In this document: piece by piece, positions 2,209 to 42,040 of the stretch
Layout of the letters: every line of letters starts with the position of its first letter
Numbering within the stretch: position 1 is the stretch's first letter
Origin: Ostreococcus lucimarinus
Lineage: Eukaryota
Strand: one strand, 5' to 3'
Length of the DNA stretch: 64,000 nt
Assembly (NCBI GenBank): GCA_000092065.1
Contig: CP000586.1
The notes under the pieces: model-generated
Told to the model about the DNA's origin: nothing
Seen by the model: only the letters and a program-made list of their open reading frames with translations
Database searches by the model: none
Position numbers and translations under genes: made by a program

Positions 2209-2270
2209 GTGCGTACTTGCGTAAATAATTGCATCGTGAAAGTCTGAATTAATTAAATAATTTCCCTCAG

Positions 2271-2591: not shown

Positions 2592-2658
2592 GTGAGGAAT
2601 TATTTCATTTATTTATTTAGAGCTTGAATTCACGAATTTTTTGTTTCGTCGCGATCAG

Positions 2659-2727: not shown

Positions 2728-2813
2728 GTACGAAAACGCCCGTCTAGAGCGCACGAATTAATTATTTCGCCGTGAACAATTATTTTTTACTAACCAACAC
2801 ATTTTGCTCGTAG

Positions 2814-4583: not shown

Positions 4584-4616
4584 AAATACTAGACAATAGT
4601 TTTAAAAACTTATAGA

Positions 4617-23500: not shown

Positions 23501-26500
23501 TGTTGATTGCGTGCGCATACGCAGACAATCGCAACTTATTACTTTCTTTGCCCGAATTCCCAGAGTGGTTAGTGGAGATACTCGTGCAGTCCACAATCTC
23601 TAGCGCGTTGAGTGCTGCAAACGACCTGCTAATGATCCTGTTGCAACATTCAATGCGATTGCCGGATGGTTGGCGCGTTCTTGAGACAGTGATTGAATCG
23701 ATCAAGATGGTCACCAAAGATGATGTAAAAAAGCGAGCCGAAGTCCAGCAGCTAGTATTGCAAAGCTTGGCGACGTTTATGATCAGTGAGTTGAAAGGCA
23801 TAAGCGTTTCAGATGATAATCGAACAAAGAAGTCGAGAGAAAACCTGAGCGCAAACAGCAACGCAACGTTTGAAAACATCATCGCTTTGTTAGACATGAT
23901 TGAAGATCATTTGAGGTTACTTAGCGCTGAGTCACTATCGCCAATTCATTCATACGATATTGGTAAGATCTCGAACGCCCTAGTCTGCTACGGGGCATAC
24001 GCTACGGACTCAGCAAATGGATGGGTCAACCGTTGTCGCTTGATTGAAGGTCTCGTCGCGACGCCAAGCGCAGGTTCAACAGCAATGGGCGGTCAATCTC
24101 TCGAACTGCTACGTCTCACGCAGCAAATGATAAATTTTATGGTCGGTATGCAATGCACTGGTGCAGATTCATACTCACTGTTGCTGAAGGATGATGAGTT
24201 GGTCCTCTTATTTCTCAGACTCACTCTCGCGTATTTTCGCGAAGAAGATCTTCCAATAGATGACGATTCGTATGATAGCGCCCTACCGCTGATGCCGGCA
24301 CATATCGTGAATACACTGCCGTCGCTAACCTCCGGTAGTTCTTCGATTTCCGATGCGATTGTATTTGAGGCAAAGCATCTGTGGGGCACGACACAGTCGA
24401 GCGAGGCTGGTAAGAAGTTGGCAGTGTTGCACAACCTGCTTGTACCTCTGTTGCAAGCGGCATCGGTGCGTAAAACGGCTCGTCTCGCACCAGGAGCCAT
24501 AGCGCTTCTGTTAGACGAAGTTTGGCGGTACTCAAAACTCAAGGGACGAAAAGTGGTGTATATCAAGGCGATCACCACTTACTTGATCGCCTTGGTTGCT
24601 CGCTGGCGGGAAGTCATCGTTGCGGGCGAGAAGGATGATATCTCTCCAAAGCTGCGTTCGCTTGCATCAGGATCGTTGAGCTCAGCAATAATATCTCTAT
24701 GTTCAGCTGAGTGGACCAAGATACTCATGTCGTCAACAATCAAGGAAACGCTCATATGTGTAGTCAAATCAACGCCTATGGGTGAAACGCGAAACAGCGT
24801 CGTAGCCGCCCGAGGCCCAGATGCGACAGAGTCGAGACTGAGTGCGCAGAGAGCTGTTCATCACACAAGGACAGATACTTTCAAAAAGTTTGTGACGACT
24901 TGGGAAGGTGAATACGTGCACATCTCTATGTCGTCGAAATGGCTCGCAGCGCTCTCAAAGGAAGCTTCTAGACGTACTCTATCCATCGCCGCCGAAGGCG
25001 AAAAGAAAAGCGAAGTTATCGTCGCTTGGGAAGGTTACATGAGAGCCTTGCAAGCGAGTAATTCTCTGGTGACGAAAATTAAGGATGATGGCGATGTCGC
25101 ACGTTTAGGAATCGACCCATCAGAGAGCGGTAGACGACGTCGTTACTCTCTTTCTCGCATGGCGATGCGACAGCGTTTAACGCATTTGGCACCAGTCGAC
25201 TCAAAGGCGATGGAAATTAAGCTCCCTGTCCGACAACAGCATGACGCATCGGACGACGAAGATGACCTTCCTCTGAGTCCACAGCGATCGATGAACAACG
25301 AAGAGTTAAACGAGGTGATGGCTGCCACTGCCGCACTGGCAGTCGCGGCAAATCGTAGCGAAGTAAAGAAGTCCAATTATGAGTGTTCTGCGACAATGGT
25401 CACTCCTCTGGACATCTACAGTGGCAAATTCACAATCTCTGACAAGGAAATGATATTTTACACCGAAGACAACTCGCACGTCTGGTCTTGGCCCCTGGAG
25501 CATCTTCATCAAGTTCAAAGTCGAAGATATTTGCTTCGTCGAAGCGCTCTGGAATTTTTCATGCTAGACCGCATGACTTACTTTATTGATTTCGGTACTG
25601 CTGAACAAAGGCGGCAAGTTTTCCGCGTGTTGATCAAGCTGAAGCCCAAAAATTTCGTTCCACTCTATCTTGAGACCAGTAAGCCGGAAGCTTTGCTCCG
25701 CAAAAGTGATATCACGTCACGGTGGATTCGTCGTGAAATTTCAAATTTTGACTATATCATGGCGCTGAATACACTTGCCGGAAGAAGTTACCAAGACATA
25801 ACGCAGTATCCAGTGTTCCCGTGGGTTCTCACGGATTACACCTCGGAAACTCTAGATTTGAGCAATCCAGACGTGTATCGTGATTTGCGGAAGCCTATCG
25901 GAGCGCTGAACCCAGATCGACTTGCGAGAATCAAGGAGCGCTACGACTTTTTTGACGACCCTGAAATCCCGAAGTTTCATTACGGGAGTCATTATAGCTC
26001 ATCTGGAACGGTCTTATTCTATCTCTTGCGTGTCGATCCATTCACGACGCTCGCATATGAGCTGCAAGGTGGTAAATTTGATCATGCAGATAGACTTTTC
26101 CACGACATTGCTTCGACGTGGAAGAGTTGCTACAATGACATGAGTGACGTCAAAGAGCTTGTACCTGAATTCTTCTACCTTCCAGAAATGTTCAAAAATG
26201 TCAACAATATTGACTTCGGAGTCACTCAATCTGGTGAGAAAGTCGACGCCGTCATACTTCCTCCGTGGGCAAAATCACCGGAAGACTTCGTCGCAAAGCA
26301 GCGCGAGGCTCTTGAGAGTGACTACGTCAGTAAGAACCTTCACCACTGGGTCGATCTCATTTTTGGCTACAAGCAAAGAGGCAAAGCTGCAGAGTCTGCG
26401 TGTAATGTTTTCTACTATATGACCTATGAAGGTGCAGTTGACGTCGAAGCTATTCAAGATCCAATCCTGCTGAAGGCAACGCAGGATCAAATTGCTTGCT

Positions 26501-27846
26501 TCGGGCAAACTCCCTCGCAGCTTCTGACCATACCACATCCTGGTAGGCAACGCGCGGCTGATTCAGTTATCGGGTGCCATTGGTTATTTGATAACGGCGA
26601 CAAAGTGAACGACTACCTTCTCAATACACCAAGTTACGCTGACAACCGTGTCGCCTTCATGGACATTCTCTCCACCGGTCAACTAGTCGTAATATCCACA
26701 GCTTTGGAGATGAAGACGCATCGCTTCATGCCAAGTGTGCCAAGTGGTGCGGGGTTACCATTTACTTTTGAGCCTGCGAAAGAACAAAGCACGCTCGGTT
26801 CGTTCATGGGTTCGATTCGTCGACGAGCTGGATTTACTGATGTCACAGAAGCTGTGAAATTTAACGCCAAACTTGATCCAAAGCTGATCAAGCCTGGTCG
26901 AAAGCTTCCGTGCGCCATGCTTCCCGGCGGACGTCACGTGGTTATTGGTGGTCACGCCGATAACTCATTGAAGGTATTCAACTGCGAGAACGGGTCGATA
27001 GAGAGTAATGAAACGGGCCACCGCGCGCCTGTAATTTCGATTTCAATCTCCGCCGACGGGAGAGTTCTTGCGACTGGATCTGTCGACGGTACGATTGGAA
27101 TCTGGCTTATCAGAATACCAACGGAGAAAGTTACACTAGGTGAGAATCTACGAGAAACAATCGCTCCAATCATTCGAGTCGACGTCAACTCCATTTTCAA
27201 CGAAGGATCAACCGTTGCAAACGTCATTGATCGTTTGACAACTGACGATGCTCCGACGACAAAGATGACGCTAAATGGGCCCATTAGCTTACTGAAAGGG
27301 CATGGTGAGTCAATTACATCGCTCGCCATAAACACGAACTTGGATTTAATTTTGGCGGTGACTCCAGCTGCTGGGGCTTCTCTTTATTCCGTGATGAAAG
27401 GCGCCGCCATGGTCACATTTCCCAACCTTCGAGGTTCCCTTTGCGCTATTTCTGACGAAGCCTTTTTGGTTGTTTGGAACGAGTTGCAACGCACACTCAC
27501 TGTGGTATCATTGAATGGAAACATCATCTCAACAATTTCTTTGGTGGATACGTGTTCCACTTTAACCACGTTACTTGTTTCGAAGGACGGTTATCATCTC
27601 GTGGCTGGCACGGCATCCAGTGAGGGAAAAGTGGCTGTAGTTGCTTTTGACTTACCCTCGTTACGTTTGCGCCATCGCTGGGAGTTCGAATCGAATTCCG
27701 ACATCAGTCAAGTCGTCATGACGGCTGACAATACGAATATACTCGTCTCGACGCACGAAGGAGCCGTGAGGGTACTGGTAGATCCAAGTCTCGCGGCGCG
27801 AGTACTTGAGTCCGCTTTGCAAGCTGGCTGGTCGTCAGTCGTTTGA
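20551..27846 (+). CDS. BEACH-domain protein of the neurobeachin/LRBA/LvsA type (ConA-like lectin, PH-like, BEACH, C-terminal WD40)
   Basis: BEACH core ..DITQYPVFPWVLTDYTSETLDLSNPDVYRDLRKPIGALNPDRLARIKERY..FHYGSHYSSSGTVLFYLLRVDPFTT... An upstream ConA-like region and WD40-like repeats at the C-terminus are present. The ORF is 2.4 kaa with no stops; ATG preferred at 20551 (MELLLEF). Confidence 0.9.
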   Translation: MELLLEFDDDAHYLDDDARARRRSTSSSAVVGRWARDDDDDDDDETYVAATLRRAVRRCAPGNDGSDDDANDAFEALTRFVSDGDEDALALTVIKLLELVGGDAAVMMARGDDEDDDGNENVGENDEHGHGMDVAIARCDAGYVKLGVELARTMPETKYGPSHRGALLRGVRHVLRSYMGNCHAVCEQGVVQELLRSLDALLRSNENGKADGDVKIVAECARRAAGFSMSALDLKVWLELAAASTPESRGFLLDQLNMTLQTRFSTGPAELFLLDGESSGILGSAQPKWPFTEGLAFVTWVYLESVSASETTAASAASYAAAASASQVVDASPLAAAAVAAAAAGEDEVHMPRLFSFLSAEGQGVECYFHDGFLILETNGVKESRMTLPFSHKFPLKRWFCLGIEHKPASVRTGGAETRLYVNGICVETHKFDLPKISKPLGFCCIGTNPPAAMAGLQRKRRQCALFASLGPVYIFKQALGGHAMKALSARGGSYVPRFSSNDDKGGDVNVEDVLDKVLAPTILQVLHPRMASKNYVLDISPAGVSIESKAALLGGTTVARRNLMRDSIWASCESGPAIMLPFACPLVSSRNLAPEISDAHDDFASAGLSIRSVIGIIAGACENHPPNLKVMEDKNVPSLLAHALPFAMDALRRQFSGDILDDEEEAILDAIEHLLSVCKSEKVLSKQLLSTLVLDFKPWNGSGARVVRRRLNICSSLCNTSPDLMQEISALQLLFDNGRRWLSPATSLMGGILHSSSTKSVMDDRGELRVSEKELLGLIDDLLVSVNLLVNTSEHMDAKVEIIIGFLAECPCPHMLSATIKLVHSMIVSPKADRANEFLFAFVSKGGVEVCMGLMRALALRGKFDHQLQGVQGLFAECVRLFGYMLETGCVSANKTTEVGGSKKVTKGSIERAVRYAFIKGSAELLTVDVYEAIIQSSISINLASINMTEPARLISGGMLGSMLSTLPKCEESVSSRALNDVMLIACAYADNRNLLLSLPEFPEWLVEILVQSTISSALSAANDLLMILLQHSMRLPDGWRVLETVIESIKMVTKDDVKKRAEVQQLVLQSLATFMISELKGISVSDDNRTKKSRENLSANSNATFENIIALLDMIEDHLRLLSAESLSPIHSYDIGKISNALVCYGAYATDSANGWVNRCRLIEGLVATPSAGSTAMGGQSLELLRLTQQMINFMVGMQCTGADSYSLLLKDDELVLLFLRLTLAYFREEDLPIDDDSYDSALPLMPAHIVNTLPSLTSGSSSISDAIVFEAKHLWGTTQSSEAGKKLAVLHNLLVPLLQAASVRKTARLAPGAIALLLDEVWRYSKLKGRKVVYIKAITTYLIALVARWREVIVAGEKDDISPKLRSLASGSLSSAIISLCSAEWTKILMSSTIKETLICVVKSTPMGETRNSVVAARGPDATESRLSAQRAVHHTRTDTFKKFVTTWEGEYVHISMSSKWLAALSKEASRRTLSIAAEGEKKSEVIVAWEGYMRALQASNSLVTKIKDDGDVARLGIDPSESGRRRRYSLSRMAMRQRLTHLAPVDSKAMEIKLPVRQQHDASDDEDDLPLSPQRSMNNEELNEVMAATAALAVAANRSEVKKSNYECSATMVTPLDIYSGKFTISDKEMIFYTEDNSHVWSWPLEHLHQVQSRRYLLRRSALEFFMLDRMTYFIDFGTAEQRRQVFRVLIKLKPKNFVPLYLETSKPEALLRKSDITSRWIRREISNFDYIMALNTLAGRSYQDITQYPVFPWVLTDYTSETLDLSNPDVYRDLRKPIGALNPDRLARIKERYDFFDDPEIPKFHYGSHYSSSGTVLFYLLRVDPFTTLAYELQGGKFDHADRLFHDIASTWKSCYNDMSDVKELVPEFFYLPEMFKNVNNIDFGVTQSGEKVDAVILPPWAKSPEDFVAKQREALESDYVSKNLHHWVDLIFGYKQRGKAAESACNVFYYMTYEGAVDVEAIQDPILLKATQDQIACFGQTPSQLLTIPHPGRQRAADSVIGCHWLFDNGDKVNDYLLNTPSYADNRVAFMDILSTGQLVVISTALEMKTHRFMPSVPSGAGLPFTFEPAKEQSTLGSFMGSIRRRAGFTDVTEAVKFNAKLDPKLIKPGRKLPCAMLPGGRHVVIGGHADNSLKVFNCENGSIESNETGHRAPVISISISADGRVLATGSVDGTIGIWLIRIPTEKVTLGENLRETIAPIIRVDVNSIFNEGSTVANVIDRLTTDDAPTTKMTLNGPISLLKGHGESITSLAINTNLDLILAVTPAAGASLYSVMKGAAMVTFPNLRGSLCAISDEAFLVVWNELQRTLTVVSLNGNIISTISLVDTCSTLTTLLVSKDGYHLVAGTASSEGKVAVVAFDLPSLRLRHRWEFESNSDISQVVMTADNTNILVSTHEGAVRVLVDPSLAARVLESALQAGWSSVV

Positions 27847-27911
27847 GATTTTTAGCACAAAAATAGCATTCATGGTAATGAAACAGTTATTAGCACTTAG
27901 TTTTACAATTT

Positions 27912-30164
27912 TCACGCGGCATGCGACCCAAAACCTTTATGGCCGGGCAACACTACGCTTTCATGGATCGCGAGAGCATAATCTTGCGCGATGCTCGGGT
28001 TCGAATGTTCCAGTTCACGGAAGCTGTCTGTGTGGCTCACTTCATTCCATTGCTGCTGACCAATCTTCACGGCGGCTTTCCATAGAGGCGCGTTCCGGGA
28101 CAAAGACGCGATTTTAGCGGCAGCAGCCGCGTTTTTCACGTTCAACTCCTTCCTCATACGATCTATGCAGTAGCCCGGTAAGCCGTCGATTTTCAAACGT
28201 TTGGCGAGCTCATACAGTTCAAGCAACATGTCCGCCTGCGGATGCACGGGGATTTGGTAAATCCAGCGTAAAGCGGCCAAAACGACGGGTACACTGGAGT
28301 CCGTGATGACTATACGCTTCATAGAATCCTTTTCGGGTGAAACCATGCGACGAACGGTGAAGGAAACGACGACAAAAAAGCAATAGAGAGCCCTCACGAG
28401 AAGAGCCATGATGGTTCCGAGATAGCGATAGTAGTGCTGCGTGATTTTCATCGCGTCAGGCTTACGTTCGAGCGCAGCAGTCATCGGAGACTTTTCCATG
28501 AGCTCTGCGAGATATTTTGAACCCTCTCTCACGACTTCTGTGTGAGCGAAAATCTTGCAATCACCGACGATGAACTCCAAGTCACCCGTGTCGTGCGAAC
28601 CTTTGATGGGCACGTGAAGTGACCCCCCAAGCAAACCTCCTTTCGAGCCGTATACACCCCTTTCATTCAGCTGCGTGAGAATATTTTGCTCAAGATTAGA
28701 CTCAATTTCGGTCTCTTGAACAGCTTCGTCCAGTTCTTTGCCTTCGCCTCTCGTCGCCACAGCGCCGCCCTCTTCGTCGCCCTCGTCGTACTGAGGGATT
28801 TTGCCCGTGTACGTCATATTCAACTCACTTTCTTCTTCTCCCGTGGGGAATGGAAGATAAGCTTCAAGATTAATCGCTATACACACACCAGCTTCCTCTG
28901 GAGAAGCTCTGATACTCGGATCACGGGAACCGTGCAAGATGACAAGGGCGCCGTCGACGCACGCCCCGGCGTGGCTAAATCGCGGGTCGGTGTCGGATTC
29001 CGGGTTGAGTCGCGCCCACTCCGCGGTAGGAAAGTGAAAGACGTACGTGTCACCAAGCACATCGTCTTGCAACAATACTCGGCCGCCATGGACGATCCAA
29101 TTCGCACCATACACGCAAGATAAGAAGGAAGTTCTCGGACTCGGCACTTGCCCGGCTCGCGCCACCATCGTCCAACGCGGCGTACCCGCCGCAGAAAGCT
29201 GAAGGACCCAAACAACCATTTCGATGGAAGTTTCGTTTGGACTTAAGATATAAAGCGTCGAATTTCGTGCCGCCATCGCGCACGCGTCACCACCAACCGG
29301 ATGCTTCCACTGCGTGTCGATGGTGAGCCATTCCGATTCCGCCAAGTCGAACCCATACAGATCATTATATATGACAACATCCTGTCCCGGCTGCACATCC
29401 TTCCCCGCGAAAACGAACAAGACGTTATCGGATATGCACATGCAATGTCCCGTGCGCGACGGCGGGGGGTCACCGATGACGTCCACCAGCGTCCACGTGC
29501 ACGCCACAAAGTCGAACACCCACAAATCGTTCAAGCATCCGAATTGCCCTTGACCACCGAAAACGTACAGCAAATCCCCGTGCACGACCGCGCCGTGTCC
29601 ATATCGACCCGGGGGCACGCCAACTTCGCCATCCGCCGCCGTGGCGGCGACTTCGTAACACGCCCCTCGTCCGCTCCACCTGTACACGCTCGTCACGAAT
29701 TCTCCCTCGTGCGCCAATCCTCCGTACGTGTACACCTCGTCCTCCCACACGAACGCCGCGGTTCCGACGAAGTAACCTTCTTCATCTTCGTACCCATCCT
29801 CATCCTCGTCATCGTCCCCATCGAACGCGTTCGCGCCGTCGACGGCGTCCTCTTCTTCGCCGAACTCGTTTACGCGTCCCGCGCGCGTCGTCGTCGTCGT
29901 CGTCGTCGCCCCGCCCCGTCCGATCGTCACCTCCGTCGTCCGACGCGCGACGCGCGCGCGTTCGATCGTCGTCTCGCCCTCGCGCGCGATCCCGCGCGCG
30001 TCGTCTCCGAGTCCTTCGTCGTCGTCTCGCGTCAGCGCGTCCGCGAGCGCGTTCAAAAACGCCGCGCGCGATTGCTGCGGCGCGACGCCCTTCGCCCTGG
30101 CCAGCGCGCTGAGCTGCTTCGTCGTCATCGACGTCAGCGGCACGCCGTCGTGTTCGAGCGCCAT
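27912..30164 (-). CDS. LZTR1-like protein: N-terminal SAP-like motif, acidic linker, Kelch repeats, BTB/POZ domain(s)
   Basis: Kelch blades (..YTYGGLAHEGEF..; GRYGHGAVVHGDLLYVFGG..; PSRTGHCMCISDNVLFVFAG..) precede a BTB (GDLEFIVGDCKIFAHTEVVREGSKYLAELM..). ATG at 30164 (MALEHDG). The six-frame ORF extends further 5-prime without an ATG-supported start. Confidence 0.7.
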   Translation of the reverse strand: MALEHDGVPLTSMTTKQLSALARAKGVAPQQSRAAFLNALADALTRDDDEGLGDDARGIAREGETTIERARVARRTTEVTIGRGGATTTTTTTRAGRVNEFGEEEDAVDGANAFDGDDDEDEDGYEDEEGYFVGTAAFVWEDEVYTYGGLAHEGEFVTSVYRWSGRGACYEVAATAADGEVGVPPGRYGHGAVVHGDLLYVFGGQGQFGCLNDLWVFDFVACTWTLVDVIGDPPPSRTGHCMCISDNVLFVFAGKDVQPGQDVVIYNDLYGFDLAESEWLTIDTQWKHPVGGDACAMAARNSTLYILSPNETSIEMVVWVLQLSAAGTPRWTMVARAGQVPSPRTSFLSCVYGANWIVHGGRVLLQDDVLGDTYVFHFPTAEWARLNPESDTDPRFSHAGACVDGALVILHGSRDPSIRASPEEAGVCIAINLEAYLPFPTGEEESELNMTYTGKIPQYDEGDEEGGAVATRGEGKELDEAVQETEIESNLEQNILTQLNERGVYGSKGGLLGGSLHVPIKGSHDTGDLEFIVGDCKIFAHTEVVREGSKYLAELMEKSPMTAALERKPDAMKITQHYYRYLGTIMALLVRALYCFFVVVSFTVRRMVSPEKDSMKRIVITDSSVPVVLAALRWIYQIPVHPQADMLLELYELAKRLKIDGLPGYCIDRMRKELNVKNAAAAAKIASLSRNAPLWKAAVKIGQQQWNEVSHTDSFRELEHSNPSIAQDYALAIHESVVLPGHKGFGSHAA

Positions 30165-33642: not shown

Positions 33643-35754
33643 TCATCGCTTTTCGTGGCGCACACGCGAGACGCCGAAATAAAATGTGGCCAAGTACACT
33701 GGGACGCTGAGCGACGCGTACAGCAACGACATCCACTTTCCGCGCTCGGCGAGCGAAAACGTTCGCAGCACGGACTCCCCCGTGATCGCATCGCATTGGC
33801 TTTGATTGGAGAAAAACATGCGTAAAAGCCGTAAAGATGATTCTGGCAAGGACATGGACTCGATCAAGTCGTCTAAACCGCCCGTGTCTGAGCCGCAGTG
33901 ATCAAAGAATTCGCGGCCGTCGTACTCGTTCACCATGATCGACGACCACGCCCACTGGATGAACGAGATATTGTACAACCATCTCCACGCGTTGTGTATC
34001 GTGCGAGCTCGAATGAAGAAACCTCCGACTAACATGTTTATCGTTGCGTAAATTGGGAGCACGCTCGCGGGGCCGACGTCACCCGGAATCGCAGCTGAGA
34101 TCGTGCAGCCGATCAGCTGCGAGATGGTGAAGTTCACGAGACAGGTGAAAACAAAAAAGAAGAACGCAATCGCGGTTGGATTGAGCCCGACGCACCAATA
34201 CAAAACCGCGGAGAAAGACAAAGAGGCGAGGATGGTCATGGGCATTTCGGCGATAATTTTTGAAGCGACGTAATTTCCCGGACGATAATAGCTTTCGTGA
34301 AACTCGCGAGTGTAGACTTCGCGCTCAAATTTCACTTCTTCCACGTGGACTTGTGCCATGAACGACGGTAGTATGCACGCGATGAACATGATGCCGTTGG
34401 TGTTCAATATCCCAGTTGGAGTCTTTTTCTGCTGATAGAAAAACGCGCTCAGCAGAGCGGCGAGAATGACGTACAGACCACATCTTGTAAACCAGAAGAT
34501 CGCGTAGCGCCATTTTGGGGCATCCTTATACCGAATCATGATGCCCAACTCAGTGAATGGATTGTGCGCATATTCTGAATCTTTGCCTGTGCCGTTGGTC
34601 TTTGAAGATTCGGTGTTGATCGTCACCGCGTTCATCGGCAGTTTGAGCGACGTGATTTCTGCCACGTGCTCCAAGTTGGACGCGCGCAGGCTCGATTCGG
34701 CGTAATATTTGGCGCACTCCTGACCAGTGGATATGGTGTCGATAAAGTACTCTGCGATGTTAAAGCCAGCCTCGTATGGAAACCCTTGATTGATGAAAAA
34801 GTCCATGGGATTGTGCCCAGCTTCGCCGAAATACGCGAGCATGCCAGAGGTGAGCAAAATCAACTTGTTGAAAGATTGGTAGATCGGCATGGAAGGTTGG
34901 TGAACGGTCACCAGGAGCGTGCGACCATCCTCCGCTTGAAGTCTGGATAGACAATTGATCACATCAGCTGCCATTGAAGAGTCCAAACCCGAAGTAGGCT
35001 CGTCCAAGAACATCGCTCTGGGATTTGACGTGCACAGCGCGGACGCGACGGCCAATCGCTTGAGCTCTCCACCGCTTATCCCGCGAATCACGTGGTTGCC
35101 GACTAGGGTATCCCGACACTTTGAAAGATTCATCTGATCAATCACGTGCTCCACTAACTCCAACTTACGCTTTACGTCCTCAGTTGACGTGCCAGGAAGC
35201 TTGATCATCGCTGCAAACGTAACTGTCTCCGCGACAGTCGCGCCTCCGAAGAAGGCTTCATGTTGCGGAACATACGCCGTGTACTTCTTGATCGTCGCCA
35301 AACTGGGCACCACACCATCAAAGAGAATCTTACCACGTATCCTGCCTTCCGTCTTGCGCCCAGATATTATGTCCAAGAGCGTCGTCTTCCCAGATCCAGA
35401 CTGGCCCATCACCGCACACATCGCGCCTCTTTCGATGACTCCGCTGATTTCGTTCAAAATGACCTTGGTACGCGCCACTGGTTCGATCGAGGACTCTTGC
35501 TTGCAAGTGCAGGAGTTGTGAACTGATCCAGATGAGACTTTAATGTCGCATCCCACGCCGTCGAGCGCGATGGTAAGACCGTTTTGCTGCGATGAAATCG
35601 AGGCCACACGATGAGCACCGTGGTGCTTTGCTTCGAGCACACCTTGCTGCAACTGTTTCGCTGTTTCGATGTCGACGCACGACACGCTATCTAAGCTGTT
35701 TGCGCTCGAGAGATTATTTGCAGTTCCGTCATGCCGAGATTGCCTTGCGCCCAT
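33643..35754 (-). CDS. ABCG-family (white/WBC-type) half-size ABC transporter
   Basis: Walker A GQSGSGKTTLLDIISGR, signature ISGGELKRLAVASAL, Walker B MFLDEPTSGLDS and a 6-TM ABC2 domain are present. The ATG at 35754 (MGARQSRHDG) is preferred because the longer ORF would overlap the 3-prime end of UTP11. Confidence 0.85.
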   Translation of the reverse strand: MGARQSRHDGTANNLSSANSLDSVSCVDIETAKQLQQGVLEAKHHGAHRVASISSQQNGLTIALDGVGCDIKVSSGSVHNSCTCKQESSIEPVARTKVILNEISGVIERGAMCAVMGQSGSGKTTLLDIISGRKTEGRIRGKILFDGVVPSLATIKKYTAYVPQHEAFFGGATVAETVTFAAMIKLPGTSTEDVKRKLELVEHVIDQMNLSKCRDTLVGNHVIRGISGGELKRLAVASALCTSNPRAMFLDEPTSGLDSSMAADVINCLSRLQAEDGRTLLVTVHQPSMPIYQSFNKLILLTSGMLAYFGEAGHNPMDFFINQGFPYEAGFNIAEYFIDTISTGQECAKYYAESSLRASNLEHVAEITSLKLPMNAVTINTESSKTNGTGKDSEYAHNPFTELGIMIRYKDAPKWRYAIFWFTRCGLYVILAALLSAFFYQQKKTPTGILNTNGIMFIACILPSFMAQVHVEEVKFEREVYTREFHESYYRPGNYVASKIIAEMPMTILASLSFSAVLYWCVGLNPTAIAFFFFVFTCLVNFTISQLIGCTISAAIPGDVGPASVLPIYATINMLVGGFFIRARTIHNAWRWLYNISFIQWAWSSIMVNEYDGREFFDHCGSDTGGLDDLIESMSLPESSLRLLRMFFSNQSQCDAITGESVLRTFSLAERGKWMSLLYASLSVPVYLATFYFGVSRVRHEKR

Positions 35755-35933
35755 GTTCGTGAGCGGTGCATTCTGAAGTCTGAAATCTGAGTTTGCCTCG
35801 TGGTTATCAACTCGACGAGATTGAACGTTCACGAATCGACAGGTGAAATCACGGTATCGTGTCAGTATAATTACATTCAAGCTAAAATAATCGCTACTGA
35901 AGACGAATGGGATTCGCGCACGGACACTCGCAT

Positions 35934-36734
35934 CTATTTCTGGCGTTCTTGCTTCCATTTGAAGTACGACGTCTTTGTTCCATCGGGATTCGTCTTCGTA
36001 ATCTTCACCTTGTGCCCTTTGGAGTGAGAAATGACTTTTTGCATCGCCATCTCTGCGCTCATGTCCTTCAGCTTCTTCGCTCGTTCATCGTAGGCGGTGT
36101 ACGTCTTGTACGCACCCTTCTGCATCCGCGTGAGCCTCTTCATAGAAATCTCCGATGCGCCAGTGCCGCTCGAGCCGGCGGCGCCGTCGCTTCGCACGCC
36201 GACCACCGCGTCTTCGTCCTCCAACTGCGCCCGACGAGGACGATTGAATGTTCGATTCACGAGCTCAGGGACGGTATCGAAATGCTCCGCCGCATCGAAA
36301 CTTTTCGCCTCTTCTTCCGTGTCAACGAAGACGGTGTGTTTGCGCTTCACCGGAACGCCGATACCGTGCAAATTTCGCTTCATCTTCTCCACCTTCTTAC
36401 CCTCAATCGCCGCCTTCATTTGCACGTACTTCACATCCTGCGTCTTCATCACCCGTAACTCTTCTTCGGTGTATTTGTTCTGTTCCGTGCTCCTCGCCAC
36501 GTGCACCCCGTCGTCCGTCTTCGCCTTTTGCATGGCAAAGTAAAACTCATCCGGATTCCTATACGCCGCCTTTCGCTTCAACGCGTTGATCGCATCTTCC
36601 TTCTTGTGATAATCTCTCGCGCGAAGCACGTAATCCTTCTTCTTCTCCAGCAAACCGAACCGTTTGCGCTCGCTCAACTGCGACCGCTCCTTGTGCGTCT
36701 TGCGTTTGACGGCGTTACGAAGCGAGCTCGACAT
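35934..36734 (-). CDS. UTP11: U3 snoRNP protein UTP11
   Basis: MSSSLRNAVKRKTHKERSQLSERKRFGLLEKKKDYVLRARDYHKKEDAINALKRKAAYRNPDEFYFAM matches the UTP11 family N-terminus. 266 aa. Confidence 0.85.
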   Translation of the reverse strand: MSSSLRNAVKRKTHKERSQLSERKRFGLLEKKKDYVLRARDYHKKEDAINALKRKAAYRNPDEFYFAMQKAKTDDGVHVARSTEQNKYTEEELRVMKTQDVKYVQMKAAIEGKKVEKMKRNLHGIGVPVKRKHTVFVDTEEEAKSFDAAEHFDTVPELVNRTFNRPRRAQLEDEDAVVGVRSDGAAGSSGTGASEISMKRLTRMQKGAYKTYTAYDERAKKLKDMSAEMAMQKVISHSKGHKVKITKTNPDGTKTSYFKWKQERQK

Positions 36735-36947: not shown

Positions 36948-37394
36948 ATGCGGGGCGCGCGCGATGAAGACGACGATGCGCGCGCGATGGCGGCGCCGGT
37001 GACGCGCGACGACGCGATGCGCGTGCTGGGACTGGACGAGCGCGACGCGAGGAATCCGAGCTTGGTGAAGCGAACCGTGCGCGAGCGCGCGTTGGATGCG
37101 CATCCCGATCGCGCCACGGGGTCGCGCGAGCGATTCAGCGCAGTGATGGCGTCGAGAGATATACTTTTGAGCGACCTACGGGGCGGAGGGACGAATCGAG
37201 GGTTCACGATGGCGGAGAGCGCGGCGCGGCGAGCGACGGATAACGCGCTGCCAAAGCACTTCAAGTCGTTCATCGTCGCGACGGCGTTGGTTTTAGTCGG
37301 TGTGTCGTGCGTCAGGACGAACGCGGGCGAGAGGCGTAAAGCGAGAAGTCCACTGGTGAGAGACGCCATGGGTTTACCGCCTAGCGATGCGTGA
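36948..37394 (+). CDS. Small J-domain (DnaJ-like) protein with C-terminal TM segment
   Basis: J-domain core AMRVLGLDERDARNPSLVKRTVRERALDAHPDRATGSRERFSAVMASRDILL, including the HPD tripeptide. It is followed by the hydrophobic segment FIVATALVLVGVSCV. The start is ambiguous (36948 or 36993). Confidence 0.6.
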   Translation: MRGARDEDDDARAMAAPVTRDDAMRVLGLDERDARNPSLVKRTVRERALDAHPDRATGSRERFSAVMASRDILLSDLRGGGTNRGFTMAESAARRATDNALPKHFKSFIVATALVLVGVSCVRTNAGERRKARSPLVRDAMGLPPSDA

Positions 37395-37451: not shown

Positions 37452-39824
37452 CTAACTTTGCTTGGCTTTGACGCTCGTAGGCGTCCACCAATCCTCCGCG
37501 AGCACGACGACTTGATCACCCGGATTCAGTCTGACTCGTTTGTCCTTTCGCGGAGAAATGGCGAGTTCACCATCAGCGCGCATGATGCCCAACGCGATTT
37601 CGTCCCGTTCGCGAGCGCGCTCGCAAATCGTTCCCCAGTACACTTCGGCGTCATTTTCAGTGACAAATTCATTGTACATGCGCATGTACAGCTCTTTGCC
37701 CTGCTTTTCGAGCAGATAGTCAAACAAACCAGCGAGTTTGGTGTTGGCAGAAACTTGAAGAAGCGCGCCGCCTATGAGATTGTCGTGTAAAATCACGTCA
37801 ACCGTACCGATGCCAGCATACATATCCTCAGCCACCCTCTTTGCCACTTCACTCGACAACTCAGAGACGATATGAGGAGCGTGACCCGTGTCAGCTCTTT
37901 TTGATAAATACGCGACTTGCATGATTGATGACAGTGCGTGACTGTCTTGCGTTGCGTCGTCGCTATCTGTTGGGGGCATGATCAAAACCGCTCCCGCTTC
38001 GTGCACACGATTTTGTTCCAACGTCGCTCTCTTCTGGGCGTCCATGGCCACGTGTTTCACGTTGCAATTCGTGTTCCCTTTTAAAATACTTTTATCGAGC
38101 TCATAATTGTTGATGAGGGTTATACTCGAGCCAGGTGGAGCTAAGACTAGCATGTCTTCGAGCACACTAGAACTCTCCTCGTTCCAACCGAGCATGACAA
38201 CTTTGCGGGGAGCCGGCATCCGGACCGGGCATCTAAGCATTGTCAAGTGCTGTGATCCCGGAGGAGGAATATTCTCGTTTTTATTGGACCCTTTCCGCTT
38301 CGCAATATCTGCTTCGATCGTGGACTTGTTGTCTGCCACGACGGTGACTGCCCCGCTTGGTCCAATGACGTCAGTCTCGCTCGGACCAAGGATCATGCCT
38401 TCTGCGTTGGTAATTCCGACCAGTGTAGTCGTGTTGAACATTCTCCAGGCTTCCTGGAATGTCTTACCCGCTAGACTTGGGTGCGAATACGTGTAAAACT
38501 CAGAACTATCGTTGGATTGAAGCATGAGATCTTCAAATAATTTACTTCCGCCTGGTTGCATGATGGAGTAAGCTTTGAGTTTCGACAACTCTCCAGTGCC
38601 GTTGACGACGCAGAATTCGCCATGTTTATTCCCTTCTTTCTCAGTCAAATCGACCGCGAGAGCGACACCATCATCGATTTCAGATCTGCGAGTGGGAGAT
38701 TGAACGATGACGTTTGGCCCTCGACCACCTGTGATGCCGCCGCCAGAACGCAAATTCAACACCGCCGCCGCCTTTTGGCTCTCGACAGTGTCCTCGTTCT
38801 CGCCGTCATCGTGCAACACCACGACCCGCTCGGCCGCCCAAGCGTTCACTCGATCCAAGTCTTCAGCATTATGAGCTTGACCCGAGCGAGTTACGACGGT
38901 CAGCGGAGGACTATCCTGGAGTTCATCTTCAATGGTGGCGTCCATCTCCTCCTTGTCCCTGTTAGCCAGTAAAACCACCGGCCTTTCGAAACCAATCCCT
39001 TCGCTCTTTGCCACGGCGACTTGTTTCAGTAACGGAATCAACTGCTCATTCCAGTTCAATATTACGGTATGATTCTGTTCGAACACCTTACTGTTCCCCG
39101 TCTTTACCTCGTCAACCTTGCTCGCGATTTCGTCAGACACAACGCCGATTAAAATTGCAAAGGTGAACATCCCACAAAACACAATCAGTTGTGCGACGAC
39201 AACACTTTTCCAGTTCTCTTCTGCCGTACTGTCCGCTCCAGGAACGTCATTCAACCAATAAAACGTCTTTGCAATGGATGCACCCCACTCTTCTTCGCTC
39301 ACGTGCCTGTACACCGCCGCCGCGGCGAGGACGAGCGGTACCATCGCCGCCGTGATCATAAAAACTTTCCCATACAACGGCCAGCCGAAAACTCTCTGCG
39401 CAACGTACATCCCGTTCGATCGCGCATTATTCAACCGATCTTCGAAACTCGTGCTCGCGCTCGCGTGCGCTGGCGCCGGCGTCGGCGGCTTGCGCACGCT
39501 CGTCCAACCGCCACCGAGCGCTCCGGCGACGACACACGCGCCGGCGACGCCCACCGCGCGCGCCCGCACCACCGCTCTCCGCGGTCGTTCAGCGTGCGAA
39601 CAATCATTCACACTCTCCGTCGTCTTGCCGAGCATGGCGTCCATCGTGCGCGCGTCCAGCGCGCGTCTTCGTCGTTCGAGCGTTGCATCTTCGTCCCCGT
39701 CGTCGCCGTTCGAAGCCGCCACGACGACGACCGCGCTCGTGCGGCGCGTGCGCGACGCGCGCGAGGCTCGTGCGAGTGGTTTCGACGCCGAAACGCGCGC
39801 GCGCAGCGCGCGGTTCGCGAACAT
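37452..39824 (-). CDS. CASTOR/POLLUX/DMI1-like putative cation channel (TM pore region plus tandem RCK/TrkA-like domains)
   Basis: The TM region (..VFMITAAMVPLVLAAAAVY..; ..VVVAQLIVFCGMFTFAILIGVVSDEIASKV) is followed by NHTVILNWNEQLIPLLKQVAVAKSEGIGFERPVVLLANRDKEEMDATI. This matches the conserved DMI1/CASTOR linker (..NHILILGWSDKLGSLLKQLA..AERDKEEME..). A second RCK-like half is present. The ORF track opens at a GTG at 39836; the first ATG is at 39824. Confidence 0.65.
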   Translation of the reverse strand: MFANRALRARVSASKPLARASRASRTRRTSAVVVVAASNGDDGDEDATLERRRRALDARTMDAMLGKTTESVNDCSHAERPRRAVVRARAVGVAGACVVAGALGGGWTSVRKPPTPAPAHASASTSFEDRLNNARSNGMYVAQRVFGWPLYGKVFMITAAMVPLVLAAAAVYRHVSEEEWGASIAKTFYWLNDVPGADSTAEENWKSVVVAQLIVFCGMFTFAILIGVVSDEIASKVDEVKTGNSKVFEQNHTVILNWNEQLIPLLKQVAVAKSEGIGFERPVVLLANRDKEEMDATIEDELQDSPPLTVVTRSGQAHNAEDLDRVNAWAAERVVVLHDDGENEDTVESQKAAAVLNLRSGGGITGGRGPNVIVQSPTRRSEIDDGVALAVDLTEKEGNKHGEFCVVNGTGELSKLKAYSIMQPGGSKLFEDLMLQSNDSSEFYTYSHPSLAGKTFQEAWRMFNTTTLVGITNAEGMILGPSETDVIGPSGAVTVVADNKSTIEADIAKRKGSNKNENIPPPGSQHLTMLRCPVRMPAPRKVVMLGWNEESSSVLEDMLVLAPPGSSITLINNYELDKSILKGNTNCNVKHVAMDAQKRATLEQNRVHEAGAVLIMPPTDSDDATQDSHALSSIMQVAYLSKRADTGHAPHIVSELSSEVAKRVAEDMYAGIGTVDVILHDNLIGGALLQVSANTKLAGLFDYLLEKQGKELYMRMYNEFVTENDAEVYWGTICERARERDEIALGIMRADGELAISPRKDKRVRLNPGDQVVVLAEDWWTPTSVKAKQS

Positions 39825-39904: not shown

Positions 39905-42040
39905 TTACAAGTCTAATTTCGGGTGCGCCATGCGCAATAAATCGATCGCGACGGTCGCAGCGTCGCCACTTTCGGCGCGAAGACGATTTAAACGCGCGGT
40001 GGCGCTCGCTAGGACGGCGTCGTCGAGCGCCGCGGACGCTCTAGCGATGGCGTCGTCGAGCGCTACGGCGTCGACTGAGGCGGAAGCTTTCGCAATGTCG
40101 ATCTCAGCGGAGAGTTCTTTGATGGTTGTCGACGCTTGCTGGGCATCGATGAAACGTTTTTCTTCGACCGCGGCAGTCTTGACGCGCTCGAGCTCGGCGA
40201 TGCGAGATGACAGGTCGGTTTCACGCTGACGGGCGGATTCGACACACCGCTTCTCATCGCGGGTGCGTTCAAGCGCCTTTTCGGCTTCGTCAAGCCGGGC
40301 ACGCGCGCTCGTTTCGGCTGTGATGAATGTGGCCAAGTTATTCAGCGCATTTTGCTTGCTCGATAGATCCGTCTCGCGCTGGTGAAGCGTCTCTTGAAGA
40401 CTCGCCGTGGCGTTCTCTGCCTCGGTGGCGATGTCTTGAACTTCTTTCAACTCTTCTGGAGCTCCGCTGGAAACTTCTTCAGTAGTTTCGTCAAAATTTT
40501 GCAAGTCATCAGTTGCAGCGTCTCGTCGACGCGCGGCATCGGCAATAGTTTGCCGCAGTAAGCCCTCTTCTTCTAAAAGCTGCGTGCGTTCAATTTCTTT
40601 TTCGTGAAGCTTGTTTTCCTTGGCCTGGAGCTCGGCGCGTAACGACGCAATCTCGTCTCTTAATTCGCTCAAGGGCGCATCCAAAGCAGCTCTCTTCTCC
40701 GAAATATCTACTAAATTCTTTTCCAACGATGTGCACGTCGTCTGTGCTTCGTCCTTTGCGACCATCAAAGCATTCTTTCTTGCTTCTCGCGCTATGGCAG
40801 CGGCGCGCTGGGCTTCATGTTGTGAAGACATCGCATCGTCCAGTTGTCGACGTTTCGTTTCGGCAAATTGCTGAATTTCGTCCATACTCGAACAAATTTC
40901 CGCAATCCACGTTTTCAAAGCTTCAGAAGCTTCAGCCAAGCAATCGCGGAACTCATTCTCTGCAGCAAAGAGCTTCGCTATCATCTCAGAGTATGCGCGT
41001 CGAGCGCCCTCTATAGATTCTTCGAGGCGAGCGGCAGCTTCGAAATCGTCCTTTCCGATGGCACCTTCTTGCTCGAGCTTGAACTTTTCTATGGTTTCTA
41101 GTAATTTTGTACACTCTTTTGCGGATACCAACCGTTTTGAGGTCGCAGCGACCCGTCGCGCTTCGGCGCTTTCGTACGCCAACTTTGCTGGCTTAAATCT
41201 CACGTCCGACGCCTTCAACAATCCACGGAGTTCCACGCGCGCGTCTCCTCTATCATCACCAACGATAGGTGTCGCTGACTCGTCCTCCTCACTCGGCGTC
41301 GCCACTGCGAACTCGAACGCATCGTCGCCTCCCACTTCAACTTCGTCAAAGACGGGTGCGTCCTCGATGGACACCTCCGCCTTCGCCATCATCGTCGCCT
41401 CGAAATCCATTAATCCAGCGCCGGCTTCACGACGCCCGTACCCGATTCTGGGTTTCTCACGTCTCCACGAACTATCGGGCGTCGACGCATTGTTGAGGCC
41501 GAACAAATCGGCCGGAGAAATTGGCGTCGTCGGCTTCGGCGACGCGTCAACCGTCGGAGAAATCATCGTCGCATTCATCGCCATGGGTGGCGTTTCATTC
41601 AGCGTCAACCCCGAGAACAAATCCAATCCACCACTCGCCACCGTCGTCGTCGCCCGCGGCGTCTCCACGACTTCTCGAAACGCGCCTCCGTTCGCGACTT
41701 TGTCCACCGCGTCGTTTGCCAATTCCTCCAACGCGCCGAGCGCCTCGAGCGCGTCCTCGTCTCCCGCCTTGGCGCGCTGTCGAACTCCTTCGATCATCCT
41801 GCGCGCTCGATTGATCTTGGAGAACTTGATCCCATCGTCTTCGGCGCTCGTGAGCGCGTCTGCGAGCAGATTCGACGCGCGATTGACGAGCTCGTCGAGC
41901 GACATTTCGTTCGCATCCGGCGTCTCGCTCGCCCCGCGCGCCGTGGCGTTGGGCGTGAGCGGCGACGACGACGGCGACGACGACGGCGAACGCGCGTTCG
42001 CGCTCGGCGACGCCGCGACCGCGCCGCGACGACCGAACAT
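39905..42040 (-). CDS. Long coiled-coil protein with UVR-like motif (unknown function)
   Basis: 711-aa ORF. The region from about aa 330 has heptad-rich, Glu/Ala/Lys/Arg-rich composition. The motif ..KDDFEAAARLEESIEGARRAY.. resembles a UVR domain. The N-terminal 300 aa are Ser/Pro/Thr-rich and look disordered. Confidence 0.45.
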   Translation of the reverse strand: MFGRRGAVAASPSANARSPSSSPSSSPLTPNATARGASETPDANEMSLDELVNRASNLLADALTSAEDDGIKFSKINRARRMIEGVRQRAKAGDEDALEALGALEELANDAVDKVANGGAFREVVETPRATTTVASGGLDLFSGLTLNETPPMAMNATMISPTVDASPKPTTPISPADLFGLNNASTPDSSWRREKPRIGYGRREAGAGLMDFEATMMAKAEVSIEDAPVFDEVEVGGDDAFEFAVATPSEEDESATPIVGDDRGDARVELRGLLKASDVRFKPAKLAYESAEARRVAATSKRLVSAKECTKLLETIEKFKLEQEGAIGKDDFEAAARLEESIEGARRAYSEMIAKLFAAENEFRDCLAEASEALKTWIAEICSSMDEIQQFAETKRRQLDDAMSSQHEAQRAAAIAREARKNALMVAKDEAQTTCTSLEKNLVDISEKRAALDAPLSELRDEIASLRAELQAKENKLHEKEIERTQLLEEEGLLRQTIADAARRRDAATDDLQNFDETTEEVSSGAPEELKEVQDIATEAENATASLQETLHQRETDLSSKQNALNNLATFITAETSARARLDEAEKALERTRDEKRCVESARQRETDLSSRIAELERVKTAAVEEKRFIDAQQASTTIKELSAEIDIAKASASVDAVALDDAIARASAALDDAVLASATARLNRLRAESGDAATVAIDLLRMAHPKLDL

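What the first reader, a model, noticed from the sequence alone, without database searches (positions are those of the whole stretch)
37452..39824. CASTOR/POLLUX/DMI1-family channel homologue
The linker after the last TM helix (NHTVILNWNEQLIPLLKQVAVAKSEGIGFERPVVLLANRDKEEMDATI) matches the signature region of the plant nuclear-envelope cation channels DMI1/CASTOR/POLLUX. Those channels are required for symbiotic Ca2+ spiking. A homologue in a free-living alga would speak to the pre-symbiotic ancestral role of this family, which can be Ca2+-regulated.
Basis: partly seen in the sequence, partly recalled or inferred. Interest (0 to 1): 0.55.

Follow-up and report, generated by a model that had tools for sequence, protein, structure and literature searches.

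The report
Algal CASTOR/POLLUX-family channel, not a DMI1 orthologue
The gene encodes a real ion channel of the same broad family as the plant symbiosis channels DMI1/CASTOR/POLLUX, but it sits in a separate green-algal branch with a different pore, so it says little directly about the ancestry of symbiotic calcium spiking.

Summary
An intact, intronless 790-aa ORF lies at 37452-39824 (-). It matches Pfam Castor_Poll_mid (E=3e-15) and aligns with the crystallised LjCASTOR gating ring over residues 242-777 (E=5.5e-27). An AlphaFold model superposes on that ring with TM-score 0.83. The protein has an M1, pore helix, loop and M2 pore followed by two tandem RCK domains.

- The quoted 48-aa "signature" is the first beta-alpha-beta of RCK1. 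It is 42% identical to CASTOR but also 23-44% identical to bacterial homologues.
- In a 156-sequence NJ tree the protein falls in a eukaryotic-algal clade. Its named members are chlorophytes plus Vitrella. The clade is split from everything else with 98% bootstrap. CASTOR-like proteins group with bacterial homologues (90%).
- Pycnococcus carries both types.
- The filter is DVPGAD. It is neither ADSGNHA (CASTOR type) nor TVGYG (K+ type).
- The CASTOR Ca(III) ligands and the Arg/His partner residues of the Ca(I) site are lost. The Ca(II) glutamate is kept.
- The N-terminus looks like an organellar presequence.

Chlorophyte homologues, including one from Micromonas, are already published (Völkner 2021). 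This is an ordinary new member of a known family. I could not test its relation to the plastid PEC channels.

The parts
37452..39824 (-). Complete intronless CDS, 790 aa plus stop: the channel subunit
   Evidence: ORF list. A 99.6%-identical protein (P0001; 3 aa and 4 nt differences) lies on a metagenome contig with the same neighbours. Orthologues at 59-69% identity keep the same gene order.
39693..39824 (-). Residues 1-44: basic, acid-free N-terminal stretch, probably a cleavable organellar presequence (inferred)
   Evidence: The first 40 residues hold 9 R/K, 0 D/E, 8 S/T and 10 A. AF2 pLDDT is below 50. Identity among close orthologues is only 25%, yet the composition is kept. No targeting predictor was available.
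39501..39572 (-). Residues 85-108: weakly hydrophobic Ala/Gly/Val segment preceded by Arg residues; possible extra TM or signal-anchor
   Evidence: Kyte-Doolittle peak 1.69. The pattern 'ACVxAGAL' is conserved in orthologues. AF2 confidence is low, with a helix only at 97-103.
39387..39446 (-). Residues 127-146: helix preceding M1
   Evidence: AF2 secondary structure. Y140 is invariant in alignment A1.
39297..39377 (-). Residues 150-176: outer pore helix M1
   Evidence: Hydropathy peak 2.25. AF2 helix 150-176 with pLDDT about 80. Aligns with MthK M1.
39249..39287 (-). Residues 180-192: pore helix
   Evidence: AF2 helix 180-192. Gap-free alignment with the MthK pore helix.
39213..39248 (-). Residues 193-204: selectivity-filter loop D193-V-P-G-A-D198-S-T-A-E-E
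   Evidence: The gap-free phmmer alignment places DVPGAD on the TVGYGD of MthK (E=0.0055). The clade-wide motif is LN(N/D)(V/I)PGAD(x)T, against W(T/V)F(V/I)ADxGxH in CASTOR-like proteins and LDPGT in bacterial ones.
39099..39212 (-). Residues 205-242: inner helix M2 (TM about 205-229) continuing as the linker to the gating ring
   Evidence: Hydropathy peak 2.62. AF2 helix 205-242. The pore module 127-242 is the best conserved region, 79% among orthologues.
38295..39098 (-). Residues 243-510: RCK1.
   Evidence: Pfam Slo-like_RCK at 280-350 and Castor_Poll_mid at 414-507. Alignment to LjCASTOR RCK1. E442 corresponds to CASTOR Ca(II) ligand E493. G276, N499 and K500 replace Ca(III) ligands S345, D553 and D554.
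37455..38204 (-). Residues 541-790: RCK2
   Evidence: phmmer alignment to LjCASTOR residues about 584-853. AF2 Rossmann-like beta-alpha pattern with pLDDT 85-94. Foldseek superposition on the CASTOR/DMI1 rings.

Best explanation
The ORF encodes one subunit of a tetrameric, ligand-gated cation channel. Each subunit has a K+-channel-type pore (M1, pore helix, filter loop, M2) joined to two tandem RCK domains. By analogy with CASTOR, DMI1 and BK channels, four subunits would form a cytoplasm-side gating ring that opens the pore.

The protein belongs to the CASTOR/POLLUX/PEC superfamily. It is not an orthologue of the nuclear DMI1/CASTOR/POLLUX channels. It belongs to a separate clade found in chlorophytes and a few other plastid-bearing algae.

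Its filter reads DVPGAD where K+ channels have TVGYGD and CASTOR has AD(S/A)GNHA. It is therefore most likely a poorly selective cation channel, possibly permeable to divalent ions, rather than a K+-selective one.

Gating by Ca2+ is possible. The Ca(II) glutamate is kept and the Ca(I) acidic pair probably is. The Ca(III) site and the Arg/His lock are missing, so Ca2+ gating cannot simply be transferred from CASTOR.

The basic, acid-free and poorly conserved N-terminus, together with the clade's restriction to plastid-bearing lineages, makes an organellar location the most likely one. The plastid envelope, as for Arabidopsis PEC1/2, is my first choice.

Shown: gene integrity, family membership, architecture, clade placement, filter sequence and site conservation. 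Inferred: tetramer formation, selectivity, gating ligand and location.
For: Family and architecture:
- Pfam Castor_Poll_mid E=3e-15 and Slo-like_RCK E=8e-7.
- LjCASTOR E=5.5e-27 over residues 242-777.
- AF2 model with pLDDT 75.7, showing M1, pore helix, loop and M2, then tandem Rossmann-like domains.
- Foldseek hits on the CASTOR and DMI1 rings (target TM 0.80-0.83), then Slo1, Slo2 and GsuK.
- The pore aligns gap-free with MthK (E=0.0055).

Clade placement:
- NJ tree of 156 sequences and 592 columns. The split of A from the rest has 98% bootstrap, B+C has 90%, and the Mamiellophyceae-like subclade has 92%.
- HMM scores of 600, 336 and 351 bits against the A, B and C profiles.
- Named clade-A members are Nephroselmis, Pycnococcus/Pseudoscourfieldia, Bryopsis, Pedinophyceae, Pleodorina, Chlamydomonas eustigma, Myrmecia and Vitrella.
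- Pycnococcus also has a separate POLLUX-type protein.

Functional constraint:
- Identity among orthologues is 79% in the pore against 25-33% in the N-terminus.
- Synteny is conserved.

Presequence-like N-terminus.

Literature:
- Chlorophyte homologues branch outside streptophyte PEC plus CASTOR/POLLUX.
- PEC1/2 carry transit peptides, sit in the inner envelope and carry K+/FACC-like currents (PMC8644588; PMC13535249).
Against: - No targeting predictor or experiment supports the plastid location. CASTOR and POLLUX themselves were once mislocalised to plastids (PMC8644588).
- I could not obtain AtPEC1/2 sequences, so the relation of clade A to PEC is untested.
- The tree is NJ on simple distances. 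Clade A has long branches, so its position outside (CASTOR-like + bacterial) could be partly long-branch artefact.
- Filter-loop pLDDT is only about 59 in a monomer model.
- Selectivity and gating ligand are inferences from sequence alone.
Confidence: 0.7

Rival explanations
1. First reader's reading. The protein is the algal counterpart (orthologue or pre-duplication ancestor) of DMI1/CASTOR/POLLUX. It would sit in the nuclear envelope and act as a Ca2+-regulated channel in nuclear Ca2+ signalling.
For: Co-linear homology with the CASTOR and DMI1 gating rings. The Ca(II) glutamate is conserved (E442) and the Ca(I) acidic pair probably is (E382/D384 in the pairwise alignment). Völkner et al. 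inferred a single PEC/CASTOR/POLLUX ancestor in the green lineage.
Against: The protein is separated from the CASTOR-containing group with 98% bootstrap, and bacterial homologues are closer to CASTOR than it is. A chlorophyte, Pycnococcus, has a distinct POLLUX-type gene 50% identical to LjCASTOR alongside a clade-A gene. The filter is DVPGAD rather than AD(S/A)GNHA, whose D265 is essential in CASTOR. S345, D553, D554, H463, R589 and R590 are not conserved. There are two strong hydrophobic helices plus one weak one, against four TM in CASTOR. The N-terminus looks like a presequence.
Confidence: 0.1
2. Same channel type, but in another compartment (mitochondrial inner membrane, ER, vacuole or plasma membrane) rather than the plastid envelope.
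For: Arg/Ser/Ala-rich, acid-free presequences are shared by mitochondrial and plastid targeting in prasinophytes, so the composition cannot distinguish them. Not all clade-A members show such N-termini.
Against: The named clade-A members are all from plastid-bearing lineages, including the chromerid Vitrella. The only experimentally localised non-nuclear relatives, PEC1/2, are plastid inner-envelope proteins.
Confidence: 0.17
3. A generic prokaryote-type RCK/TrkA K+ channel, a recent bacterial transfer, or bacterial contamination of the assembly.
For: Full-length homologues are widespread in bacteria. 549 loci were confirmed in Actinomycetota, Chloroflexota, Acidobacteriota, Bacteroidota and other phyla. 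One relative is named 'Trk K+ transport system NAD-binding subunit' by JGI.
Against: The gene is embedded among eukaryotic nuclear genes (Utp11, RIO2, ATG1, BEACH, ABCG), and the gene order is conserved in a related species. It clusters with eukaryotic algal proteins, not with the bacterial group. There is no TVGYG filter and no NCBIfam prokaryotic family match.
Confidence: 0.03

Closest known systems
LjCASTOR / LjPOLLUX / MtDMI1 (nuclear-envelope channels of land plants; PDB 6o6j, 6o7a, 7vm8)
   Same: Same superfamily and domain order: pore followed by a tandem-RCK gating ring that contains the Castor_Poll_mid region. Co-linear alignment over about 540 residues. Predicted ring superposes at TM 0.80-0.83. 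Neither has a TVGYG filter. The Ca(II) glutamate (E493 in CASTOR, E442 here) is conserved.
   Different: Only 22-24% identity. Different clade. Filter is DVPGAD against AD(S/A)GNHA. Ca(III) ligands and the H463/R589/R590 lock are absent. Two to three hydrophobic segments rather than four. N-terminus is presequence-like.
Arabidopsis PEC1/PEC2 (POLLUX-like plastid envelope ion channels, At5g02940 and At5g43745)
   Same: Non-nuclear members of the same superfamily, with N-terminal transit peptides, about 800 aa, and probably an odd number of TM segments (PMC8644588). The window protein has a presequence-like N-terminus, 790 aa, and 2+1 hydrophobic segments.
   Different: Orthology is not tested because no PEC sequence could be retrieved. 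In the published tree, chlorophyte homologues lie outside streptophyte PEC plus CASTOR/POLLUX. A Mesostigma protein (P0152, filter region FVAAPDNRE), which may represent the PEC type, does not fall in clade A.
Bacterial Castor_Poll_mid channels (about 620-650 aa, 2TM plus tandem RCK; for example in Naasia aerilata, Herbiconiux, Levilinea)
   Same: Same architecture, without the N-terminal extension. 23-28% identity to the window protein. The RCK1 start motif is shared.
   Different: Filter is LD(P/A)GT(M/V). They are closer to CASTOR than to the window protein. Prokaryotic genomic context.
BK/Slo1, Slo2 and GsuK tandem-RCK K+ channels; MthK
   Same: Pore plus RCK gating-ring design. Foldseek E about 1e-22 over about 780 columns for Slo1 and Slo2. 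MthK pore aligns gap-free.
   Different: 12-15% identity. No voltage sensor. The K+ signature TVGYG is replaced. MthK has a single RCK per subunit.

Membership tests
CASTOR/POLLUX/PEC superfamily (Pfam PF06241) | Castor_Poll_mid domain above Pfam's gathering score | tested here: met
   56.6 bits against a cutoff of 26.7, E=3e-15, residues 414-507. This is lower than for the bacterial P0117 (102.6), the Pycnococcus POLLUX-type P0183 (114) and Mesostigma P0152 (90).
CASTOR/POLLUX/PEC superfamily (Pfam PF06241) | Two tandem RCK domains co-linear with the CASTOR gating ring | tested here: met
   phmmer to 6o6j over residues 242-777, E=5.5e-27. Foldseek target TM-score 0.83.
CASTOR/POLLUX/PEC superfamily (Pfam PF06241) | M1, pore helix and M2 pore immediately N-terminal of RCK1 | tested here: met
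   Hydropathy, AF2 helices 150-176, 180-192 and 205-242, MthK pore alignment E=0.0055.
DMI1/CASTOR/POLLUX nuclear-channel clade | Phylogenetic placement with LjCASTOR/DMI1 | tested here: not met
   The clade A split from the rest has 98% NJ bootstrap. CASTOR-like plus bacterial sequences group at 90%. HMM scores are 600 (A), 336 (CASTOR-like) and 351 (bacterial).
DMI1/CASTOR/POLLUX nuclear-channel clade | Filter AD(S/A)GNHA with the essential Asp265 (Kim 2019) | tested here: not met
   The filter loop is N192-D-V-P-G-A-D198-S-T. CASTOR-like representatives keep ADxGxH.
DMI1/CASTOR/POLLUX nuclear-channel clade | Three gating-ring Ca2+ sites of CASTOR | tested here: inconclusive
   Ca(II) E493 corresponds to E442 and is kept. 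The Ca(I) residues D442/D444 correspond to E382/D384 in the pairwise alignment, which is off by one in the MSA. The partner residues H463, R589 and R590 are lost. Ca(III) S345, D553 and D554 correspond to G276, N499 and K500 and are lost.
DMI1/CASTOR/POLLUX nuclear-channel clade | Four predicted TM segments | tested here: inconclusive
   Two strong segments (M1, M2) and one weak hydrophobic segment at 85-108. The AF2 model gives no confident helix there.
DMI1/CASTOR/POLLUX nuclear-channel clade | Nuclear-envelope localisation and a role in nuclear Ca2+ spiking | not testable with these tools
   Needs imaging or genetics in the alga.
PEC (plastid envelope ion channels) | Orthology with AtPEC1/2 | not tested
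   No PEC sequence was retrievable. Word-index searches returned none, afdb50 was unavailable, and the paper's supplements are not held.
PEC (plastid envelope ion channels) | N-terminal plastid transit peptide | tested here: inconclusive
   The composition fits: 9 R/K and 0 D/E in the first 40 residues, disordered, and poorly conserved. No predictor was available, and a mitochondrial presequence would look similar.
PEC (plastid envelope ion channels) | Inner-envelope location and K+/FACC-like conductance | not testable with these tools
   Experimental properties reported for Arabidopsis only.
Canonical RCK-gated K+ channels (MthK, GsuK, BK) | TVGYG selectivity filter | tested here: not met
   DVPGA occupies the TVGYG positions in a gap-free alignment. 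Only the following Asp is shared.

The most novel reading that the evidence does not exclude
Clade A, with the conserved pore loop LN(D/N)VPGAD, is an old and functionally uncharacterised lineage of organellar cation channels in chlorophytes and some secondary-plastid algae. It would be distinct from both the nuclear CASTOR/POLLUX type, which at least one prasinophyte also has, and the streptophyte PEC type. If so, the green ancestor had more than one family member, contrary to the single-ancestor scenario. The Mamiellophyceae protein would then be a minimal model for a new filter chemistry in plastid Ca2+/K+ flux.
Probability: 0.3. Interest if true: 0.5.

Novelty: new member of a known kind. 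Interest (0 to 1): 0.25.

Why it matters
The gene shows that a picoplanktonic green alga keeps a pore plus tandem-RCK channel of the CASTOR/POLLUX/PEC superfamily. That is useful as a compact, intronless candidate for organellar cation or Ca2+ signalling in a tractable alga. It does not bear directly on the origin of symbiotic nuclear Ca2+ spiking, because it is not the DMI1-type lineage. Chlorophyte homologues were already known. The modest added value is in three points: the distinct DVPGAD filter, the partial loss of the CASTOR Ca2+ sites, and the hint that two family lineages already coexisted in early chlorophytes.

Tried and rejected
1. Retrieving named land-plant PEC1/2 and CASTOR/POLLUX sequences.
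- The three word-index searches returned only close relatives. The queries were the window protein, a trimmed 9-sequence clade-A alignment and P0152. The last search did identify P0152 as Mesostigma viride.
- The supplements of Völkner 2021 are not held.
- afdb50, which would have listed Arabidopsis POLLUX-like entries, is not installed.
- Literature searches for At5g02940, At5g43745 and the filter strings gave no sequences.
- Delaux 2015 is not held.

A 5-sequence alignment worked.

3. NCBIfam gave no match for any family member.

4. The comparison with the near-identical contig (4 nt differences) was too close to say anything about selection.

5. I considered and rejected a pseudogene or chance ORF, because the ORF is intact, the pore is 79% conserved and synteny is kept. 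I also rejected bacterial contamination, because the neighbours are eukaryotic.

6. I corrected my own MSA-based reading of the Ca(I) site. The pairwise alignment shows SEIDD opposite SDLDN, so the acidic pair is probably retained.
Full report
**The feature.** The minus strand carries one uninterrupted ORF, 37452..39824. It starts at ATG and encodes 790 aa. A GTG lies four codons upstream. The next gene on the same strand ends at 39905, so there is no room for an upstream exon. The surrounding window is a gene-dense, intron-poor eukaryotic nuclear region. Its genes include a BEACH protein, a P-type ATPase, a patatin-like protein, a Kelch protein, an ABCG transporter, Utp11, an RF-1-type release factor, RIO2 and ATG1. 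A 99.6%-identical protein (three substitutions, four nucleotide differences) sits on a metagenome contig with the same neighbours. An orthologue at 65% identity keeps the gene order RF-1, about 715-aa protein, channel, small ORF, Utp11, ABC. Relatives at 59-69% identity come from metagenome, Tara and NCBI assembly sources. These facts, with GC of about 58%, fit a Mamiellophyceae-type picoalga. No tool named the species.

**Checking the observation.** The quoted peptide is residues 251-298. Pfam finds Castor_Poll_mid (E=3e-15, residues 414-507) and Slo-like_RCK. phmmer against the PDB aligns residues 242-777 co-linearly with the crystallised LjCASTOR soluble domain (E=5.5e-27) and with MtDMI1 (E=4.7e-22).

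**Anatomy.**
- Hydropathy shows two strong helices (peaks at 154-172 and 208-226) and one weak Ala/Gly/Val segment at 85-108.
- An AlphaFold2 model built on 23 sequences has mean pLDDT 75.7 and pTM 0.65. It gives a pre-M1 helix (127-146), M1 (150-176), a pore helix (180-192), a loop (193-204) and M2 running into a linker (205-242). Two Rossmann-like RCK domains follow. Residues 1-45 and 66-126 are disordered.
- Foldseek puts the LjCASTOR and MtDMI1 gating rings first (E about 1e-33 to 1e-32, target TM 0.80-0.83). Slo1, Slo2 and GsuK follow.
- The pore alone aligns without gaps to MthK (E=0.0055). D193-V-P-G-A-D198 lies on T59-V-G-Y-G-D64.
- Among close orthologues the pore module is the most conserved part (79%). 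The first 44 residues are the least conserved (25%).
- The first 40 residues have 9 Arg/Lys and no Asp/Glu. The orthologues share this composition.

**Placement in the family.** An exhaustive HMMER search of 1.84 billion representatives found 2850 relatives. Local BLAST, a 156-sequence NJ tree and bootstrapping resolve three groups plus an intermediate pair.
- **Clade A.** It contains the window protein. Every member I could name is from an alga: Nephroselmis, Pycnococcus/Pseudoscourfieldia, Bryopsis, a pedinophyte, Pleodorina, Chlamydomonas eustigma, Myrmecia and the chromerid Vitrella.
- **Group B.** It contains LjCASTOR, a Pycnococcus/Pseudoscourfieldia protein named 'ion channel POLLUX' (50% identical to LjCASTOR) and an Ancoracysta protein.
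- **Group C.** These are about 620-650-aa bacterial proteins. 549 loci were confirmed across many phyla, including complete genomes of Naasia and Herbiconiux.
- **Bootstrap support.** The split between A and the rest appears in 98/100 bootstraps. B+C appears in 90/100.
- **Independent profile test.** The window protein scores 600 bits on an HMM of clade A built without its close relatives. It scores 336 on B and 351 on C. LjCASTOR scores 732 on B, 427 on C and 321 on A.
- **Intermediate pair.** P0125 and the Mesostigma viride protein P0152 lie between A and B+C.

The window protein is thus not a DMI1/CASTOR/POLLUX orthologue, and bacterial homologues are closer to CASTOR than it is. At least one chlorophyte carries both types.

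**Pore and ligand sites.** The pore loops are group-specific.
- Clade A has LN(N/D)(V/I)PGAD(x)T.
- Group B has W(T/V)F(V/I)ADxGxH. This is the CASTOR AD265(S/A)GNHA motif, whose Asp is essential (PMC6697748).
- The bacterial group has LD(P/A)GT(M/V).

Of the three CASTOR Ca2+ sites:
- The Ca(II) glutamate E493 is kept as E442. This position is nearly invariant family-wide.
- The Ca(I)/Mg pair D442/D444 is probably kept as E382/D384 in the pairwise alignment. The large MSA is shifted by one residue here.
- The partner residues H463, R589 and R590 are replaced.
- All three side-chain ligands of Ca(III), S345, D553 and D554, are replaced by G276, N499 and K500.
- Groups B and C largely keep these residues. 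Clade A does not.

The quoted 'signature' segment is the start of RCK1. It is 42% identical to LjCASTOR, 23-44% to bacterial homologues, and up to 60% within clade A.

**Mechanism (inference).** Four subunits should form a 2-TM pore under a tandem-RCK gating ring, as in CASTOR and BK. Replacing TVGYG by DVPGA, with acidic residues at 193, 198, 202 and 203, argues against K+ selectivity. It favours a cation channel that may pass or bind divalent ions. The gating ligand is uncertain. Ca2+ is possible but not transferable from CASTOR. Three observations make an organellar location most likely: the presequence-like N-terminus, the conserved weak hydrophobic segment (which would give an odd TM count, as proposed for PEC1), and the restriction of named clade-A members to plastid-bearing lineages. 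I judge the plastid envelope the likeliest site, by analogy with Arabidopsis PEC1/2. Those proteins carry transit peptides, reside in the inner envelope, rescue K+-uptake-deficient yeast and underlie FACC-like currents (PMC8644588; PMC13535249). None of this was tested here.

**Comparison with what is known.** Völkner et al. (2021) already included chlorophyte homologues from Chlamydomonas, Coccomyxa, Micromonas pusilla and Ulva. They found them branching outside streptophyte PEC plus CASTOR/POLLUX. A Chlamydomonas review lists two 'POLLUX-related' genes. JGI already names the most divergent orthologue cluster of the Mamiellophyceae-like subclade (P0013) 'ion channel POLLUX/CASTOR'. The existence of an algal homologue is therefore not new. 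My tree is compatible with the published topology if the Mesostigma-type pair represents PEC. It adds that bacterial homologues attach on the CASTOR side and that one prasinophyte has both types. That conclusion rests on NJ distances and lacks land-plant PEC sequences, which I could not retrieve by any route.

**Verdict.** The ORF is a real, conserved member of the CASTOR/POLLUX/PEC superfamily. It lies in the chlorophyte-type clade, has a distinct filter and only partial conservation of the CASTOR Ca2+ sites, and is probably organellar. It is a new member of a known kind and of modest interest.

Noticed in passing
window 2001-6000, 22001-28000, 34001-36000: GC drops to 48-51% over some genes (patatin-like and P-type ATPase, the 2463-aa BEACH protein, the ABCG transporter). 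The rest of the window is 56-68% GC. This is marked gene-to-gene compositional heterogeneity and remains unexplained.
   Followed up: partly
window 36948-37394 (+): A small 148-aa ORF lies between Utp11 and the channel gene and is also called on the related contigs. It has an 'AHPDR' motif and a weak DnaJ match (E=0.008, below Pfam's cutoff), followed by a C-terminal hydrophobic tail. It may be a membrane-anchored J-domain protein.
   Followed up: partly
window 33643-35958 (-) and 35934-36734 (-): The ABCG ORF, taken from its first ATG, overlaps the end of the Utp11 ORF by 25 nt on the same strand. In the related species the ABC gene is shorter (676 aa) and starts downstream of Utp11. The true start here is therefore probably a later ATG.
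   Followed up: no
window 39905-42040 (-): The 711-aa upstream neighbour has no Pfam match. It is Ala/Glu/Leu-rich and looks like a coiled coil. It is conserved as the channel's neighbour (718 aa) in the related species.
   Followed up: no
proteins P0098, P0095, P0091, P0148, P0116: These proteins of 618-759 aa (four of them 618-643 aa) have no N-terminal extension and look prokaryote-like. They carry the CASTOR-type pore motif (for example WTFVADPGTH) and are 40-44% identical to the LjCASTOR soluble domain. This suggests that the nuclear-channel lineage has close bacterial relatives. Their source organisms were not identified.
   Followed up: partly
proteins P0078/P0210/P0211 and P0183/P0216/P0217: Pycnococcus provasolii and Pseudoscourfieldia marina each encode a clade-A protein and a separate POLLUX-type protein. 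This does not fit easily with a single family member in the green ancestor.
   Followed up: partly
window residues 76-125 of the channel (nt about 39450-39599): In all Mamiellophyceae-like orthologues, Arg residues precede the conserved Ala/Gly/Val hydrophobic segment. A Pro-rich stretch and an Ala-x-Ala-like motif follow it. This resembles a signal-anchor or a second targeting signal. It was not tested.
   Followed up: no
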